From: Gammaproteobacteria bacterium | GTDB taxonomy: Bacteria > Pseudomonadota > Gammaproteobacteria > UBA4575 | Direction of reading: 5' to 3' | DNA length: 64,000 nt | Assembly (NCBI GenBank): GCA_965223115.1 | Contig: OZ244982.1 | Coordinates: 601,128-665,127, forward strand | Part shown: positions 38,901 to 44,900 of the stretch, piece after piece | Layout of the letters: every line of letters begins with the position of its first letter | How positions within the stretch are numbered: position 1 is the stretch's first letter | Position numbers: made by a program

Positions 38901-41900
38901 AAGGCTTACCTTATGGCGAGAATTTTGTAACCATTGAAACAATTAATTCTCTGGGTTTGAAATTCTAAATCAGTTCTTTCAATTTACTTGAAAACGCCAC
39001 GCATTTGCGTGGCGTTTTTCATTGAAACAATGCTTTGATAATGGTAGAAATTGGCCATTTAGTCAGGCTTATGCCTCATTTAGTGTTTTTCTACTCACAA
39101 CAAGGCGATATTAGCTTAATATTTCTTGATTTGAGACAAAGTAAATTTTTCAAGAATGTTTACTAATGAATATACAAATAATTTCTGATATTCATCTAGA
39201 ATTTGGTGAATTTAAATTACCAAATAAAGAATGTGATGTACTCATTGCAGCGGGCGATATCGGTGTGGGTATTGAAGGCTTGGAGTGGTTACAGACTTTA
39301 GATATACCTGTTATTTATGTAGCTGGGAATCATGAGTATTGGGGATTTGAAATTAAAGATTTAAACAACTTGCTTTCAAAAGTGAGTAAAAAAAGCAATG
39401 TTCATTATTTGGAAAAAAGCAGTGTAATTATTGATGATGTTAAGTTTATTGGCTGTACTTTATGGGCCGATTTTAATGCATGTGATGATGGGCAGTTAGA
39501 AGAGCTTGAAAGCGTTATGAATGATTTTCGTTATATATACTTTGACGGAGGTTTAGTTTCTGCACAACAATTAGTTCAATTAAATGAGAAATCAAAACAA
39601 TGGTTGGATAAAGAGCTTAACAAGCCTCATAGAGGTCCAATTGTAGTAGTGACACATCATGCACCCTCGCTGAAAAGTTGGGCAGCAGATGATAATGATT
39701 ATATAAAATACGCTTATTGTAATGAGATGGAGCCTATGTTCAAAGAACAGGAAATTGATCTATGGGTGCATGGACATATACACCGTGCCAGTGATTATAA
39801 AAAGCATGGTGTACGAGTGGTGTGTAACCCAAGAGGATATAAAGGCTATCAACTTGTTAAAAAATTTGATCCGGCAAAGAAAATAGCAGTTTAAATCTCC
39901 AATAGATTAAAAATTAATTGTATACTTGTAGTCTATGGCAAATAAAAGTATCTATAAAGTAAGTTTTTATAATCAAAACAAAGTATATGAAATCTATGCA
40001 CACCAAGTGTATCAATCTGATCTGTATGGCTTCATTACAATAGAAGGATTGACCTTTGATGAGCGGACCAGCGTAGTAGTCGATCCAAGTGAAGAAAAGC
40101 TTAAGTCAGAGTTTGAACAAGTAGATCGTTTTTTTGTCCCCATGCATGCCATTATTAGAATTGATGAGGTTAAAAAACAAGGAGTAGCGAAAATTTCTGA
40201 TGCAGGTGAGAATGTGGCTCACTTTCCTTCCCCAGTATATAACCCCGGTAATGACAAAGGTGGGAAATCCTAATTCACCAACACAAAATAATACTGTCGA
40301 AACAATATGCAATAAGTTCTTAATTGCTTATCTGATGTCGATATAATAGTTGTTGTATGGAGAGATGCCGGAGTGGTCGAATGAAGGCATTGGCACGATT
40401 TCGCCTGGAACGTGGGTACGCGTACAGGCGAGCAATAGATTCTAAATTGTTTTAGTAATGTCGATATAATAGTTGTTGTATGGAGAGATGCCGGAGTGGT
40501 CGAACGAAGGCATTGGCACGATTTCGCCTGGAACGTGGGTACGCGTACAGGCGAGCAATAGATTCTAAATTGTTTTAGTAATGTCGATATAATAGTTGTT
40601 GTATGGAGAGATGCCGGAGTGGTCGAACGGGCTCGCCTGGAAAGCGAGTGTGTCCTCAATGGGGCACCGAGGGTTCGAATCCCTCTCTCTCCGCCACAAT
40701 TATCAAAGAAGATATCGATATCTTCTTTGATAATTGAAGGTGAAAAGTGGAGTCGAACCCGAGGAGAGGGTCGACAAATTTGTTAGGAACAAATTTGAAC
40801 ATCGCTATGAAATGGCGATGGCCCGTAGGGCAAAATACAAGGAAGTATTTTGTAATCCCTCTCTCTCCGCCAGCCAATTTTGTCTCTTGCAAGACGCTAG
40901 AAATTGAGCAGAAAAGGCCCATTTCTGCAGGCATTTGCGATAAGAAAAACTTTCATGGGCACCGTACATTTCGTTTTTGCTCTCATTTTGCCAAAAGTCT
41001 CTTTTGCAATTTTCGCGGTGCCCCTTTGAGTAAAACATTGAATGGATCAACAACAGATGAAGTCACCCTTGTTTTAAATTATGAGTGCTGCTTTCTGCCA
41101 AAAGAAGTTATTGATATTAAGCATTTGCTACAAAAATAGCACCAATTACAATCAATATACTTCCAACTAATAATTTTACAGTATGTAATTCTTTCCATTC
41201 ACTAAAAATAACCAATGCAAGCAATACAGCAATCAGTGTATTCATATTATATAAGGGAACTAGTTGAGATATAGGGATGTTAAATTGAAGCAGAGAGTAC
41301 GCCACTAACCCACTTGCTATTCCCCAAGTCAAGCCGAATAATCCTGCAAAAGAGCTTGCTTTAATTGAAAAAGGAACAGTATTGTCAAAAAAATAAAAGC
41401 CTAAACCTGCAATTGCAACTCCTAATCCAACCGCAACGAGATATGTTGAAATACTTATGCCTATATTTGTGCTGAACTTTTGAAAAATAGCGGATCCACC
41501 ATAAATAAATGCAGGTAAAAATCCGCCTATTAATAAAGCTATTGCTTTAGAAGACATGTTGTTTTCCTTTTTATAAAGTAGTGTTTAGCTTTTGAATGTT
41601 ACCTTAGGTGCTGATGTGTGGTTTGAAGGCAGTAAATTTGATACTTGCAATTTTGTTTTGCACTATAGCGATATCTTCTTCAGCTGGAACAGGTGTGTAC
41701 TTAGACCCAGGACAACATGCTAACTCATCCAATTCTGTAGAGGCTAAGAGATGCTCTGCAATCAGTTGCAAATCTGTAAACCCAATATTTTTGATAATCT
41801 CGAAATAAGAATCTTTATCAATTGCACCCCCAACACAGCCTGACCAGGTGGTTTTAAAATGTTCATGTATTTTCGGATCAATCTTTTCAGTGTATACAAT

Positions 41901-44900
41901 ATCTGAAATGGCTAGACGACCACCGGGCTTTAGTATACGAGAAGCTTCTCTATACACGGCTTCTTTATCTGGGCATAAATTGATTACGCAATTCGATATG
42001 ACTACATCTGCAAAATCATTGGGAAGGTTCGATTGATCTAGATCTGTAACATGAAACTCTACTGTGTCAGATAATCCTGATTCATTTATTGCTTGCTTTG
42101 CTCGTTCAATCATTTCTGAGGAAAAATCGATCCCAATTACTTTTCCTTTTAGGATGACTTTTTTTGCAGCCAGTATGGCATCAATCCCTGCACCACATCC
42201 GAAGTCCACAACAGTTTCACCAGGCTGAAGAGCCGCAAAGCCTGCAGGATTACCACATCCTCTTGATAAGCTAAGTGCCGATTCTGGAATTAACGATATG
42301 TCTTCTTGTGTATATAACCCATGATCTGTTGCGAAACTAGAACTTTTAGAAGCTTGAATTGAACAGCAGGAACTTGCTCCAATTAAGCCAGTCTCTGCGA
42401 GTTTGCTATAACGATCTTTTACAACCTGCTTTATTTCTGTATTCGTTAGGCGGCCCATGAATTTTAATTTCCGTCACACTTTATTTAATATCAATTTAAA
42501 TATTACACCTATTCTTGAATGTTCGCTTTAGCTAGGGAAACAGTCACTAAACTAGCAGATGAATTTAATTAAAATTTATTAAAAATACCGAAAGGGACAC
42601 CGAAAATATTTACTTCAGCATTGTTTTGCAGGCTATATTTTAGTCAAAAGGTCTCTGCGGCAAGTTCAGGTAAATATTCTCATAAGAACTCAGGAGCTTA
42701 CAGATCAAAGGGGCACCAAGGGTTTGATTACATTCCACTAGTCAGTTACGTCTCTTGCAAGAGACACTAGTAATTCATCTAATTCATCAGAAAAGGCCTA
42801 TTTCTGCAGGTATTTGTGAGTAGTAAATTTCGAAAAGGGCATCGTCTGTTTTATTATTTCTCACTTTTCTGTCAAAATCTCTTTAGGAAATTTCGCGGTG
42901 TTTCTTTGGTTAAGCCATTGCTTGGATCAACTACAGCTTAAGTCAGTCTAATATAACTATCTAATTTGATAATTCAATGTTCTTTGCAGACTAATTTATT
43001 TTTTTGGATTATCATTCTAGATTGAAACTAATGAAACGCTCTCATGACTATTGCTAAGTTTATAATCCATTTAATATTTTAAAATATAGAATATGTATTA
43101 TTTTAATCAGAGTTATTATATAGGAAGATTTGCTTTAACGATTTAATTAAGGAAGAAAAATATGAAAAAAATTAAAGCCTATGTATTTAATGCTTATGGC
43201 TTAATTCTTGATCCGTATTTACCATTCTTAGAATATAGTGAACAGCTTGGTGAAAACATTCAAGAAATCTATAAATTATGGTTGACTAAACGCTTACAAT
43301 ACTCATCACTGCTAAGCTTAATGAATCAGTATGTAAACTATGAAACAATTCGAAAAGACACGCTTGATTTTGCTTGCGATGTATATAATGTTGACGATGA
43401 GAAAATCAAGACTAAGCTACTAGAACATTCAAAACTAGACTGTTATCCAGATGTAAAGGATGTTCTTGCCTTACTGAAGAAAAAAGGACTAATAACAGCA
43501 GTGCTCTCTAATGGGCCACCTCAGATTCTCAGCTCTACTCTAAAACAAGTTGGAGTTGATCATTTAATAGATGGTGTTTATTCCACAGAATTAATTCGTT
43601 CATATAAACCTTCTCCATCTGTATATGAATTTATGGGAGAACAGCTTGCATTACCTCGAAATAAGATTTGTTTTATATCTTCTAATTCTTGGGATATAGC
43701 TGGTGCATCAGCATGTGGGTTTTACTCTATATGGGTGAATCGTTATGATCATATTTCGGAACGACTCTCATATAAACCTAACCTTGTGATTAAGTCATTA
43801 TCAGAACTTAGCTCTCAGATGTGAGCATATTTATAGTACAACATGTATGCTTATTTTAAACATAAACTAATATTCTCATTTTAAAATCTTATTGATCAAA
43901 AAAATTACTCAACAAAAATAGTTTTTTCATATAAACTCTAGGTAATACTAAAAACAAGTATTCACTAAATATAAAATCAGGTTGGACAAATGCCTCACCA
44001 GGCAGAAACAAACACAGATATAGATACTGGCCTTGCATGCTTAGTGTTGCTGGCTAAATATTTTGGTCTGCCAGCAGATGCTGATCAATTAAAGCGTCAA
44101 TATGGTGAAGGTGGCAAGCATTTTGATCAAGAAAACATTCTACGCACTTCTAAAAAGTTAGGGTTTAAAGCCAAGTCTATTCGCACAGATTGGTCAAGGC
44201 TTGCAAAATTAACACTACCGGCAATAGCAGTTTATGAGAACGGACAGTTTTTTGTTTTGGCTAAAGTGACAGAAGATAAAGTTCTTATCCAAGATCCACT
44301 TGAAAAAAGGCCATTAAGTTTACCAAGAGAGGTATTTGAAAACGCATGGAGCGGTAAATTGTTGTTACTTACACATCGAGCGCATTTAATCGGTGAACAA
44401 AGAAAGTTTGATTTTACTTGGTTTATTCCAGCTATCATTAAATACCGTAAACTACTTAGTGAAGTACTTCTGGCTTCTTTTTTTCTGCAGGTTTTTGCAT
44501 TAATTACACCACTTTTCTTTCAAGTCGTCATTGATAAAGTACTTGTACACAGAGGCCTAACCACCTTGGATGTGCTTGCCATCGGTTTGTTAGTGGTGTC
44601 TTTGTTTGAAGTAGTACTAGGGGCATTACGCACTTATTTATTCTCACATACAACCAATCGCATAGATATTGAACTGGGCGCAGGCCTGTTTCGTCACCTT
44701 GCCTCATTGCCTTTAAGTTATTTTGAAAACAGACGAGTAGGTGACAGTGTTGCACGTGTACGAGAGTTGGAAAACATTCGTAATTTTCTAACCGGTTCAA
44801 CGGTTACGGTTGTAATTGATTTCTTTTTCACATTTGTATTTTTAGGGGTTATGTACTACTACAGTCCATTATTGACTTATATCGTGCTGGCAACGATTCC

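What the first reader, a model, noticed from the sequence alone, without database searches (positions are those of the whole stretch)
40300..42950. tRNA-Ser(GGA) integration hotspot: tandem partial tRNA copies, a 40-bp palindrome and repeated tRNA 3'-end att-like duplicates bracketing an arsM cassette
Upstream of the intact tRNA are two extra 123-bp units, each re-creating the -10-like TATAAT and the first ~24 nt of the tRNA. Downstream, the tRNA 3' end (aatccctctctctccgcca) recurs at 40854-40872 and in degenerate form near 42712-42740. Each copy is followed by the same ~190-bp element, and the pair flanks arsM plus a small membrane-protein gene. Repeated tRNA 3'-end copies are the classic scar of serial site-specific integrations. 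Everything downstream (HAD hydrolase, T1SS, HipBA, Phd/MazF-like pair, effector cassettes) is probably island cargo. No integrase gene lies within the window, so the element may be degenerate or the integrase lies beyond 64000.
Basis: seen in the sequence. Interest (0 to 1): 0.6.

Follow-up and report, generated by a model that had tools for sequence, protein, structure and literature searches.

The report
tRNA-Ser gene with RtT-like RNA module
Most of the repeats around this serine tRNA gene are built-in parts of the tRNA locus (extra promoter units and a structured RNA that ends in a copy of the tRNA's tail, like E. coli's RtT) and not scars of repeated island insertions, although the DNA downstream of the tRNA is a variable region.

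Summary

- **Palindrome and exact 19-nt tRNA 3' copy (40697-40872):** together they form one 176-bp module, made of a long hairpin, a four-hairpin core and the tRNA tail. It has the architecture of the E. coli tyrT RtT repeats. The same core occurs in 67 metagenomic elements with strong covariation. 25 of these lie just downstream of Ser, Pro, Gln or Arg tRNA genes, and 16 copy that tRNA's own 3' end.
- **The two 123-bp upstream units:** these are tandem copies of promoter plus a pseudo-tRNA 5' half. Related genomes (L001, L089) carry homologous pseudo-tRNA pieces, so this is a lineage trait that was recently re-duplicated.
- **The ~190-bp element:** this is the native trailer of this tRNA, because in L089 it directly follows the tRNA. 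Its second copy, with a degenerate tRNA 3' half, is the only scar-like feature. It brackets an arsM-like gene and a small membrane-protein gene.
- **Synteny:** it breaks exactly at the tRNA in all seven relatives, so a variable hotspot is supported. No integrase or terminal repeat lies in the window.

Verdict: a new variant of a known kind, of moderate interest.

The parts
40335..40580 (+). Two tandem 123-bp units. Each holds the TATAAT promoter region, the first 23-25 nt of the tRNA (40359-40381 and 40482-40506), a 17-nt insert, an anticodon-arm remnant (TCGCCTGGAA ... GCGAG) and then the next promoter region.
   Evidence: Tandem Repeats Finder. Sequence. blastn. RNA fold z-score of -2.6. Homologous pseudo-tRNA pieces in L001 and L089.
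40581..40604 (+). Third copy of the promoter-proximal segment, directly in front of the real tRNA.
40605..40696 (+). tRNA-Ser(GGA), intact, with CCA encoded.
   Evidence: ARAGORN. Rfam tRNA at 59.3 bits.
40697..40736 (+). Perfect 40-bp palindrome, forming a long hairpin directly after the CCA. It is the first part of the 176-bp module.
   Evidence: I1. Fold energy of -21.6 kcal/mol. The L001 equivalent keeps the hairpin with a changed centre. About 18 of 23 tRNA-linked relatives have a long hairpin at the same place, by my reading of the folds printed.
40737..40872 (+). RtT-like structured RNA. The 5' arm lies at about 40747-40770 and the four-hairpin core at 40768-40859. The 3' end (40854-40872) is an exact copy of the last 19 nt of the tRNA.
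   Evidence: Rfam RtT matched full length at 22.5 bits, below its cut-off. My model R1 scored 89 bits, by construction. The minimum-free-energy fold shows a closing helix plus four hairpins, z-score -4.77. Covariation.
40873..41070 (+). It is the native 3' flank of this tRNA locus and starts with a small hairpin (GTCTCTTGCAAGAC).
   Evidence: In L089 the homologous sequence follows the tRNA directly. It has no significant RNA fold, z-score +0.4.
41117..41557 (-). I did not test its membrane character with any tool.
   Evidence: ORF. No Pfam or NCBIfam family.
41604..42458 (-). ArsM-like SAM-dependent methyltransferase, 284 aa.
   Evidence: Pfam Methyltransf_31. NCBIfam arsenite methyltransferase NF008823 at 245 bits against a cut-off of 263. 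Homologues at 73-76% identity sit in unrelated gene contexts.
42705..42740 (+). Degenerate copy of the tRNA 3' half, running from the variable arm to the 3' end, with a 5-nt deletion.
   Evidence: 20 of 23 nt match. Score 31 against a null maximum of 19. Alignments A1 and A4.
42741..42950 (+). Trailer copy 2. It is 71% identical to copy 1 and 58% identical to the L089 trailer.
   Evidence: RNA fold z-score +0.6.
42953..43841 (+). Haloacid dehalogenase type II gene (43162-43824) with about 210 bp of its own upstream DNA. Homology to copies of this gene at unrelated loci in relatives starts right where trailer copy 2 ends.
   Evidence: blastn at 82-86% identity to L178 and L179. Gene contexts. 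NCBIfam TIGR01428.

Best explanation
This is the transcription unit of the single tRNA-Ser(GGA) gene found in this window. The genome is that of an uncultured gammaproteobacterium. The unit carries three kinds of locus-specific repeat, and each has a different origin.

1. **Upstream units.** Unequal crossing-over duplicated the promoter together with the 5' half of the tRNA. The upstream copy decayed into a pseudo-tRNA 5' half. That arrangement is old, because relatives L001 and L089 carry homologous remnants. In this genome the 123-bp unit was duplicated once more recently, giving three tandem promoter segments that all read into the tRNA (inferred).

2. **Downstream module.** The tRNA is followed by a 176-bp RtT-like module. 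It consists of a long hairpin and then a structured RNA. The 5' arm of that RNA pairs with a faithful copy of the last 19 nt of the tRNA, closing a helix that resembles the tRNA T-stem and acceptor stem. Four hairpins sit where the T loop would be. I infer three further steps:
   - The module is transcribed with or just after the tRNA.
   - It is cut out by the tRNA-processing enzymes, because it carries the same 3' determinants as the tRNA.
   - Its tail is kept identical to the tRNA by selection or gene conversion.

   The 19-nt repeat is therefore a design feature of the RNA and not an attachment-site scar.

3. **Trailer duplication.** The ~190-bp element is the native trailer of this tRNA locus. 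One old recombination event duplicated the tRNA 3' half together with the trailer. The arsM-like gene and the 146-aa ORF now lie between the two copies. I slightly favour a single-crossover (Campbell-type) insertion of a circular DNA that carried a homologous tRNA-3'/trailer segment. Local segmental duplication is the alternative.

Everything further downstream is a mosaic, non-syntenic region: the haloacid dehalogenase gene, a type I secretion pair, HipBA, a Phd/PemK-like pair and RTX proteins. The site behaves as a hotspot, but nothing in the window shows integrase-mediated integration.
For: **RtT-like module**
- Rfam's RtT model aligns full length (positions 1-130) to 40750-40872 at 22.5 bits, and to the first L001 module at 28.6 bits with E = 0.0028.
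- My model R1, built from 57 relatives, finds all four E. coli tyrT/tyrV RtT units full length and in register, at 11.6-17.3 bits and E = 0.002-0.04.
- Unit spacing is 176 bp here, 175 and 176 bp in L001, and 178 bp in E. coli. In each case the last 19 nt of the cognate tRNA ends the unit.
- The minimum-free-energy fold of 40737-40872 shows the closing helix plus four hairpins, with a z-score of -4.77.
- Across 55 distinct sequences, 98.1% of cells form standard pairs. 194 cells carry a change on both sides, against 57 +/- 7 in shuffles. Structures slid by 1-3 columns pair in only 25-45% of cells.
- Of 67 distinct elements, 25 have a same-strand tRNA 106-171 nt upstream (Ser, Pro, Gln or Arg). 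16 of them end in that tRNA's own 3' end.
- A long hairpin follows the CCA in about 18 of 23 tRNA-linked cases, by my reading of the folds printed.

**Upstream units**
- L089 has promoter plus 26 nt of the tRNA repeated at 241-bp spacing. The upstream copy is a pseudo-tRNA.
- L001 has TGGAGAGATGCCGG 155 nt upstream of its tRNA. Right after its D-arm remnant it shares the string GGATGTGTG with L089.

**Trailer**
- A profile of the two window copies hits L089 directly after its tRNA's CCA, with E = 8e-10.
- Copies 1 and 2 are 71% identical, and each is 56-58% identical to the L089 trailer.
- The tRNA-derived origin of 42705-42727 is significant.

**Hotspot**
- Synteny ends at the tRNA.
- DNA homology of the dehalogenase gene to other loci begins at 42953, immediately after trailer copy 2.
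- Relatives carry different cargo at the same site.
Against: - The RtT match is below Rfam's gathering score (22.5 and 28.6 bits against 45). In a 51-kb search RtT did not appear at E <= 0.1 for 14 loci that carry related elements.
- Hairpins 3 and 4 are invariant partly because I selected sequences with a pattern that lies inside them.
- The 5'-arm to tail pairing is only modestly better than cross-pairing with the tails of other tRNA types (6.75 against 5.75 paired bases, p = 0.015). It is absent in some members, including the first L001 module.
- No expression data exist for this organism.
- The long hairpin could terminate transcription before the module is reached.
- L089 has the tRNA joined directly to the trailer. 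Relative to L089, the 176-bp module looks like an insertion flanked by 19-nt direct repeats. That pattern also fits a mobile or att-type origin.
- The promoter scan did not call the TATAAT sites as full promoters.
- The origin of the trailer duplication is not resolved.
Confidence: 0.68

Rival explanations
1. One reading: all the repeats are attachment-site scars from several successive integrase-mediated insertions into the tRNA-Ser gene. The integrase gene has been lost or lies beyond the window.
For: - Synteny breaks exactly at the tRNA, and the downstream cargo is variable and island-like, with toxin-antitoxin pairs and a type I secretion system with RTX proteins.
- A 19-nt repeat running from the T loop to the CCA is the typical size and position of an island's direct repeat.
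- A degenerate tRNA 3' half lies 1.87 kb further on.
- Dinucleotide signature distance is somewhat higher downstream, at 44-115 against 25-44 upstream.
Against: - The 19-nt copy is the 3' strand of a conserved, covarying RNA structure that is found next to many tRNA types.
- Part of the core sits inside a duplicated T arm and not between the repeats.
- The upstream units duplicate the 5' half and the promoter, and relatives share them.
- The similarity between the two downstream copies extends about 200 bp beyond the tRNA sequence, into a trailer that is native in L089.
- No integrase or transposase is present in 41-64 kb.
- No further copy of the tRNA 3' end occurs in the window.
Confidence: 0.12
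2. The RtT-like module is itself a miniature mobile element, or a remnant of one. It inserts at the T loop of tRNA genes and restores or duplicates the last 19 nt, so the repeat is a target duplication.
For: - In L089 the same tRNA is joined directly to the same trailer, so the window differs by exactly one 176-bp unit bounded by the 19-nt repeat.
- The same near-invariant core lies beside Ser, Pro, Gln and Arg tRNA genes in contigs of 37-57% G+C.
- In L089 and L167 the core sits inside the T loop of a pseudo-tRNA just upstream of a real tRNA of the same type.
- 72-nt tandem arrays of the core alone occur in L145 and L170.
Against: - Recombination between the two 19-nt repeats would delete the module precisely and produce the same 'empty site'.
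- Stem sequences vary freely while pairing is kept, which points to an RNA or single-strand structure and not to protein-binding repeats.
- No recombinase is associated with the module.
- E. coli and Pasteurellaceae RtT are reported as processed, expressed RNAs (PMC4986893).
- No copy was found in viral contigs.
Confidence: 0.12
3. The two trailer copies arose by a purely local segmental duplication of the tRNA locus. The second tRNA copy then decayed. The arsM-like pair is resident DNA or was inserted later by an unrelated event, and no circular element was ever involved.
For: - This locus demonstrably duplicates itself: the 123-bp units here, the 241-bp unit in L089 and the two modules in L001.
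- L001 has a junction at 12053-12119 that joins the start of a module to a copy of its leader sequence, as expected after a tandem duplication of the whole locus (D1 and D3).
- The G+C content of 41-43 kb is not unusual.
Against: - The second copy keeps only the 3' half of the tRNA, beginning in the variable arm. That is the pattern a single crossover with a partial copy would give.
- ArsM-like homologues sit in unrelated contexts elsewhere.
- The neighbouring dehalogenase segment is clearly transposed.
Confidence: 0.25

Closest known systems
RtT repeats of the E. coli tyrT-tyrV locus (rttR, Rfam RF00391)
   Same: - The element lies directly downstream of a tRNA gene on the same strand.
- The unit is 176 bp here and 178 bp in E. 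coli.
- Each unit ends with the last 19 nt of the cognate tRNA, CCA included.
- It can be tandemly repeated, with two units in L001 and three after tyrV in E. coli.
- The core order is shared: GGTTCGAC, hairpin, hairpin, (G)CCCGAAGGGC, hairpin, GTAATCC.
- The two models match each other's sequences weakly but full length.
   Different: - The score is below Rfam's gathering threshold.
- The cognate tRNA is Ser(GGA), not Tyr.
- A long hairpin separates the tRNA from the core. I saw none in the E. coli spacer sequence.
- Hairpins 1 and 4 differ in sequence.
- I looked for no small ORF like tpr.
- The host is an uncultured gammaproteobacterium far from the enterics.
- Processing and function have not been tested here.
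RtT-family and related small RNAs of Pasteurellaceae (Arrc20 and Arrc21 in Actinobacillus pleuropneumoniae; AaHKsRNA22, Rfam RF02902)
   Same: They are tRNA-linked small RNAs of the RtT family that are expressed on Northern blots (PMC4986893). The AaHKsRNA22 consensus is a row of four hairpins that aligns hairpin for hairpin with the first L001 module, at 28.5 bits and E = 0.004.
   Different: The match is below that family's cut-off of 39.8 bits. The window's own module did not reach E <= 10 for it. Those RNAs were described upstream of Asn and Lys tRNA genes.
Genomic islands integrated at the 3' end of tRNA genes by tyrosine integrases (P4-type islands; general knowledge)
   Same: A tRNA gene marks the border between conserved and variable DNA. 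A partial copy of the tRNA 3' end lies further downstream. The cargo includes toxin-antitoxin and secretion genes.
   Different: No integrase is present. The repeated DNA extends about 200 bp beyond the tRNA sequence. The exact repeat belongs to an RNA module. No distal repeat lies in the window. Extra copies of the 5' half are not what such islands produce.

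Membership tests
RtT RNA (Rfam RF00391) | Lies immediately downstream of a tRNA gene, on the same strand. | tested here: met
   The module at 40697-40872 follows the tRNA at 40605-40696. The same holds in L001 and E. coli.
RtT RNA (Rfam RF00391) | The 3' end of the unit repeats the last ~19 nt of the cognate tRNA, including CCA. 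| tested here: met
   An exact 19-mer occurs at 40678-40696 and 40854-40872. In E. coli the tail is taatccttcccccaccacca.
RtT RNA (Rfam RF00391) | Unit of about 170-180 nt that can form tandem arrays. | tested here: met
   Spacing is 176 bp here (D6), 175 and 176 bp in L001 (D2) and 178 bp twice in E. coli.
RtT RNA (Rfam RF00391) | Covariance-model score at or above the curated gathering score of 45 bits. | tested here: not met
   22.5 bits for the window and 28.6 bits for L001. No RtT hit at gathering threshold in the window or in 26 related loci.
RtT RNA (Rfam RF00391) | Reciprocal detection: a model of this element's relatives finds the E. coli RtT units. | tested here: inconclusive
   R1 hits all four units full length and in register, but only at 11.6-17.3 bits and E = 0.002-0.04 in a 2.7-kb search. 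It found none at E <= 1 in the 1.4-Mb search.
RtT RNA (Rfam RF00391) | Released as a stable RNA by processing of the tRNA operon transcript. | not testable with these tools
   Only the predicted structure is available. Expression is reported for E. coli and A. pleuropneumoniae (PMC4986893).
tRNA-targeting integrative island (tyrosine integrase) | An integrase gene next to the tRNA or at one end of the element. | tested here: not met
   No integrase or transposase domain was found in the ORFs scanned between 41 and 64 kb. The far end lies beyond the window.
tRNA-targeting integrative island (tyrosine integrase) | Direct repeats limited to the tRNA 3' segment, flanking the inserted DNA. | tested here: inconclusive
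   A degenerate 3' half exists. However, the repeat continues about 200 bp into the native trailer, and the exact 19-mer belongs to the RNA module.
tRNA-targeting integrative island (tyrosine integrase) | Related genomes show an empty site, with conserved genes directly after the tRNA. | tested here: inconclusive
   L005 and L006 share ffs and dnaX-like genes after the tRNA. L006 and L004 share the first two downstream ORFs. None of these genes is in the window. Whether they resume after 64 kb cannot be seen, because the source contig could not be fetched.
tRNA-targeting integrative island (tyrosine integrase) | Composition that differs from the core genome. | tested here: inconclusive
   G+C content is similar on both sides. 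Dinucleotide distance is 44-115 downstream against 25-44 upstream, measured in noisy 4-kb pieces.
AaHKsRNA22 (Rfam RF02902) | Covariance-model score at or above the gathering score of 39.8 bits. | tested here: not met
   28.5 bits for the first L001 module. There was no match at E <= 10 for the window's module.

The most novel reading that the evidence does not exclude
The 85-nt four-hairpin core (GGTTCGAC, hairpin with a CYGGARC loop, GAAC, variable hairpin, GGCCCGNAGGGC, AAAAUAC..GUAUUUU, GUAAUCC) could be a widespread and so far unrecognised RNA module. It sits in the T loop of tRNA-derived mini-helices next to working Ser, Pro, Gln and Arg tRNA genes of many uncultured bacteria. It may spread between tRNA genes through the shared T-loop sequence. 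On that reading, the duplicated tRNA ends both upstream and downstream of this gene would be by-products of its propagation, and its near-invariant 3' hairpins would recruit a conserved host factor. E. coli RtT would be one diverged branch of this larger family.
Probability: 0.15. Interest if true: 0.7.

Novelty: new variant of a known kind. Interest (0 to 1): 0.4.

Why it matters
- **Island prediction.** A short exact copy of a tRNA 3' end near a tRNA gene is routinely read as an island boundary. Here, and in at least 16 metagenomic loci, that copy is part of a conserved RNA structure. Island-prediction logic can therefore be misled at such loci.
- **Reach of the RtT architecture.** RtT has had no clear function since 1991. 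Its architecture reaches well beyond enterics and Pasteurellaceae, has a core with strong covariation, and is missed by the curated Rfam threshold.
- **A route to function.** A better family model would allow its distribution, its tRNA specificity and its function to be studied.
- **A concrete example.** The locus shows how one tRNA gene accumulates promoter and pseudo-tRNA duplications, and it marks a variable genome region.

Tried and rejected
- **Legionella origin.** I assumed this from the base composition. It was rejected, because the closest genomes are uncultured Gammaproteobacteria MAGs.
- **Source contig.** Exact-protein look-ups of the source contig failed, so nothing beyond 64 kb could be read.
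- **The ~190-bp element as a dispersed repeat, a phage or plasmid sequence, or a structured RNA.**
  - There are only two copies in the window, and none in the 80 genome loci.
  - There is no match in viral contigs, plasmids or phages.
  - The fold z-scores are +0.4 and +0.6, and no Rfam family matches.
  - By eye, a short peptide frame in copy 1 is not conserved in L089.
- **Long homology between the 123-bp unit and the L001 leader.** Only a 17-nt match is significant.
- **RtT as a consistent Rfam hit for the metagenomic relatives.** It was not seen at E <= 0.1 in a 51-kb search.
- **A conserved arsM-like plus small-ORF pair elsewhere.** The ORF downstream of the L177 homologue is unrelated, and the homologues sit in different contexts.
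- **Contigs of very close relatives (L180, L181).** Both end within 70 nt after the DUF1820 gene, so they give no view of the repeats.
- **Promoter scan.** It did not call the TATAAT sites, so promoter activity of the units remains an inference.

Full report
**1. Observation**

The described features are all present.
- ARAGORN and Rfam place an intact tRNA-Ser(GGA) at 40605-40696.
- Tandem Repeats Finder reports a 123-bp period with 2.4 copies and 99% identity at 40335-40629.
- The two extra units carry the TATAAT region and the first 23 or 25 nt of the tRNA.
- The 40-bp palindrome at 40697-40736 is perfect.
- The 19-mer AATCCCTCTCTCTCCGCCA occurs exactly twice, against a chance expectation of 0.01.
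- The ~190-bp element is repeated at 40873-41070 and 42741-42950.
- The second copy is preceded by a degenerate tRNA piece that matches 20 of 23 nt. Its alignment score is 31, against a maximum of 19 in 1918 control pieces.
- Between the two copies lie a 146-aa ORF with no family match and an arsM-like methyltransferase, both on the minus strand. The best NCBIfam match for the methyltransferase is arsenite methyltransferase, at 245 bits against a cut-off of 263.

**2. Genome context**

The window is not from Legionella. The DUF1820 gene just upstream of the tRNA finds its closest relatives in uncultured Gammaproteobacteria MAGs. L001 is 88% identical and L002-L006 are 78-81% identical. All six have the same order, DUF1820 followed by tRNA-Ser(GGA).

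Window 22.5-40.3 kb is collinear with these genomes. Nothing from 41-64 kb is found within 10 kb downstream of the tRNA in any of them. L005 and L006 share a conserved downstream block containing SRP RNA and dnaX-like genes. L006 and L004 share the first two ORFs after the tRNA. L001, L002 and L003 each carry something different:
- L001 carries an ORF that I read from its sequence as an IS30-type transposase, and a large ORF that I read as a TonB-dependent receptor. Neither was checked against a family library.
- L002 carries an ORF whose translation I read as a type I restriction-modification subunit, together with SAVED-domain and ThiF-family proteins.

The site is therefore a real border between conserved and variable DNA.

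**3. The palindrome and the exact 19-nt copy form one RtT-like module**

In L001 the tRNA is followed by two tandem units, each with a hairpin, about 117 nt and the 19-nt tRNA tail. They are spaced 175 and 176 bp apart. The window has one such unit of 176 bp.

The E. coli tyrT-tyrV locus has the same design. Its 178-bp units each end in the last 19 nt of tRNA-Tyr, and one of them is annotated as the small RNA RttR.

- Rfam's RtT model aligns full length to 40750-40872 at 22.5 bits (E = 0.3), and to L001 at 28.6 bits (E = 0.0028). Both are below the gathering score of 45.
- The first L001 module also aligns hairpin for hairpin to the Aggregatibacter sRNA 22 model, at 28.5 bits.
- The predicted fold of 40737-40872 is a closing helix between a 5' arm and the 19-nt tRNA tail, enclosing four hairpins, with a z-score of -4.77.

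**4. Family evidence**

A scan of metagenome contigs for GGCCCGNAGGGCAAAATAC, a stretch shared by the three known modules, returned 93 loci. After filtering for the 3' strand of hairpin 4, these loci together with the window and L001 gave 67 distinct elements with the same order of parts.

- On a 57-sequence alignment, the four-hairpin structure pairs in 98.1% of cells.
- 194 cells carry changes on both sides, against 57 in shuffles. Structures slid by 1-3 columns pair in 25-45% of cells.
- The covariation lies in hairpins 1 and 2. Hairpins 3 and 4 are invariant, partly because my search pattern and filter lie inside them.
- 25 elements have a same-strand tRNA 106-171 nt upstream of the pattern, covering Ser, Pro, Gln and Arg isoacceptors. 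16 of them end in that tRNA's own 3' end.
- In about 18 of 23 tRNA-linked cases, by my reading of the printed folds, a long hairpin follows the CCA directly, just like the window's palindrome.
- The 5' arm pairs somewhat better with its own tail than with tails of other tRNA types (6.75 against 5.75 paired bases, p = 0.015).
- A covariance model of the core (R1) finds one copy in the window and two in L001. It finds none in 78 other genome loci.
- With filters off, R1 finds all four E. coli RtT units full length and in register, at E = 0.002-0.04.

I conclude that the module works like RtT and is probably a distant relative. It does not pass Rfam's membership threshold.

**5. The upstream 123-bp units**

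Each unit contains, in order:
- the promoter region;
- tRNA positions 1-25;
- a 17-nt insert;
- TCGCCTGGAA, the 5' strand and loop of the anticodon arm;
- a second 17-nt insert;
- GCGAG, the 3' strand of the anticodon stem;
- the next promoter region.

It is therefore a decayed copy of promoter plus the 5' half of the tRNA.

The metagenomic relative L089 has conserved upstream synteny with the window. It carries a 241-bp repeat of promoter plus 26 nt of the tRNA. Its upstream copy is a pseudo-tRNA-Ser with a 52-nt insert after position 26 and the RtT core in its T loop. L001 has TGGAGAGATGCCGG 155 nt upstream of its tRNA, followed by GGATGTGTG, a string it shares with the L089 insert.

The pseudo 5' half is thus shared by the window, L001 and L089, and it is absent from L002-L006. 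The two window units differ by one base, so the last duplication was recent. Unequal crossing-over explains this. A site-specific integrase would be expected to duplicate the 3' part of the tRNA, not the 5' part.

**6. The ~190-bp element and the arsM-like pair**

A profile built from the two window copies hits L089 immediately after the CCA of its functional tRNA, with E = 8e-10. The element is therefore the native trailer of this tRNA locus. It starts with a small hairpin that changes in a compensatory way between L089 and window copy 2. Otherwise it has no significant fold.

Copies 1 and 2 are 71% identical, and each is 56-58% identical to L089. The duplication is therefore old, but it happened after the split from the L089 lineage. 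The duplicated segment runs from the variable arm of the tRNA through the trailer, about 240 bp. This is much longer than an attachment core.

Two origins fit the data:
- a single crossover with a circular DNA that carried a homologous tRNA-3'/trailer segment plus the two genes;
- a local duplication of the locus followed by decay.

L001 contains a junction at 12053-12119 that joins the start of a module to a copy of its leader. This shows that whole-locus duplications do occur here.

Homology of the dehalogenase gene and its upstream DNA to unrelated loci in relatives starts at 42953, right at the end of trailer copy 2. The region is therefore a mosaic of separately acquired pieces.

**7. Is the downstream block an island?**

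The ORFs scanned between 41 and 64 kb encode:
- a type II haloacid dehalogenase;
- a type I secretion ABC and HlyD pair;
- HipA with an HTH partner;
- a Phd antitoxin with a weak PemK-like partner;
- three paralogous small-gene sets, one of which includes an RTX protein;
- an open frame of at least 2405 codons, rich in RTX and He_PIG repeats, that runs off the window end.

No integrase or transposase was found. G+C content does not change across the tRNA. Dinucleotide distance is moderately higher downstream. No further tRNA-Ser fragment or trailer copy occurs in the window. A variable hotspot is supported. A bounded, integrase-borne island is not shown.

**8. Mechanism, with status of each step**

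Shown:
- the anatomy of the locus;
- conservation and covariation of the core;
- linkage of the core to tRNA genes and to their own 3' ends;
- the shared ancestry of the upstream pseudo-halves;
- the trailer as the native flank of the tRNA;
- the synteny break.

Inferred:
- the three promoter segments all drive the tRNA;
- the module is transcribed with the tRNA and released by tRNA-processing enzymes, because it imitates the T-stem, acceptor stem and CCA end;
- its tail is kept identical to the tRNA by selection or gene conversion;
- the arsM-like pair entered by a single crossover.

The cellular role of RtT-type RNAs is unknown. The literature links E. coli RtT to the response to amino-acid limitation (PMC4986893).

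**9. Novelty and value**

The finding as written, a tRNA integration hotspot, is ordinary and only partly right. The useful result is twofold. A short exact tRNA-tail repeat can be part of an RNA module and not an attachment scar. And the RtT architecture extends to other tRNAs and to distant, uncultured lineages with 37-57% G+C, while scoring below the curated model. I rate it a new variant of a known kind, with moderate interest.

Noticed in passing
Metagenome loci L082-L174 (for example L099:963-1091, L105:1608-1736, L108:10517-10821): An 85-nt four-hairpin RNA core with a near-invariant 3' half occurs in 67 distinct elements, in contigs of 37-57% G+C. None reaches any Rfam gathering score except the neighbouring tRNAs. 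It looks like an under-described family related to RtT.
   Followed up: partly
L089:5714-5954; L167:11632-11760 (-); L083, L111 and L163: In some loci the core sits inside the T loop (L089 Ser-GGA, L167 Arg-ACG) or after the first 21 nt (Ser-GCT group) of a pseudo-tRNA. That pseudo-tRNA lies 62-95 nt upstream of a real tRNA of the same type. This is the mirror image of the downstream arrangement in the window.
   Followed up: partly
L145:1-160 and L170:2400-2540: The core alone forms head-to-tail arrays with a period of about 72 nt, with no tRNA tail between units.
   Followed up: no
window 56788-64000 (+): An open reading frame of at least 2405 codons runs off the end of the window. It is rich in RTX calcium-binding repeats and He_PIG Ig-like domains, and is probably a giant substrate of the type I secretion pair at 43990-47617.
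   Followed up: partly
window 49789-51027, 52339-55604 and 55950-56782: There are three paralogous gene sets. Each has a 97-99-aa protein followed by an ORF of 176-189 aa. Two sets also have a 107-133-aa protein, and one of those is followed by a 656-aa RTX-repeat protein. Pfam finds nothing in the small proteins.
   Followed up: partly
window 42953-43841; L178:9790-10680; L179:9987-10727: The haloacid dehalogenase gene is 92-94% identical in protein and 82-86% identical in DNA to copies that sit among housekeeping genes at two different loci in other metagenomic genomes. The gene has moved, or was exchanged, as a small unit.
   Followed up: partly
L002:10776-20308: In relative L002 the DNA right after tRNA-Ser(GGA) looks like a defence island. 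I read one ORF from its translation as a type I restriction-modification subunit. Pfam finds a SAVED-domain protein and a ThiF-family protein further along.
   Followed up: partly
L001:12053-12119: A partial start of an RtT-like module is joined to a 91% copy of a leader segment that lies upstream of the tRNA (10496-10528). This looks like the relic junction of a tandem duplication of the whole tRNA locus.
   Followed up: no
L180 and L181 (contig ends): Two short-read contigs from close relatives, with DUF1820 in the same 90%-identity cluster, both stop within 70 nt after the DUF1820 gene. This is just before the point where the repeats begin in the window, and suggests that the repeats break assemblies there too.
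   Followed up: no
window 8300-29800: Relative to L005, about 21 kb is extra between two syntenic blocks in the window. It includes a 1504-aa ORF at 17537-22051. This second variable stretch lies upstream of the finding.
   Followed up: no
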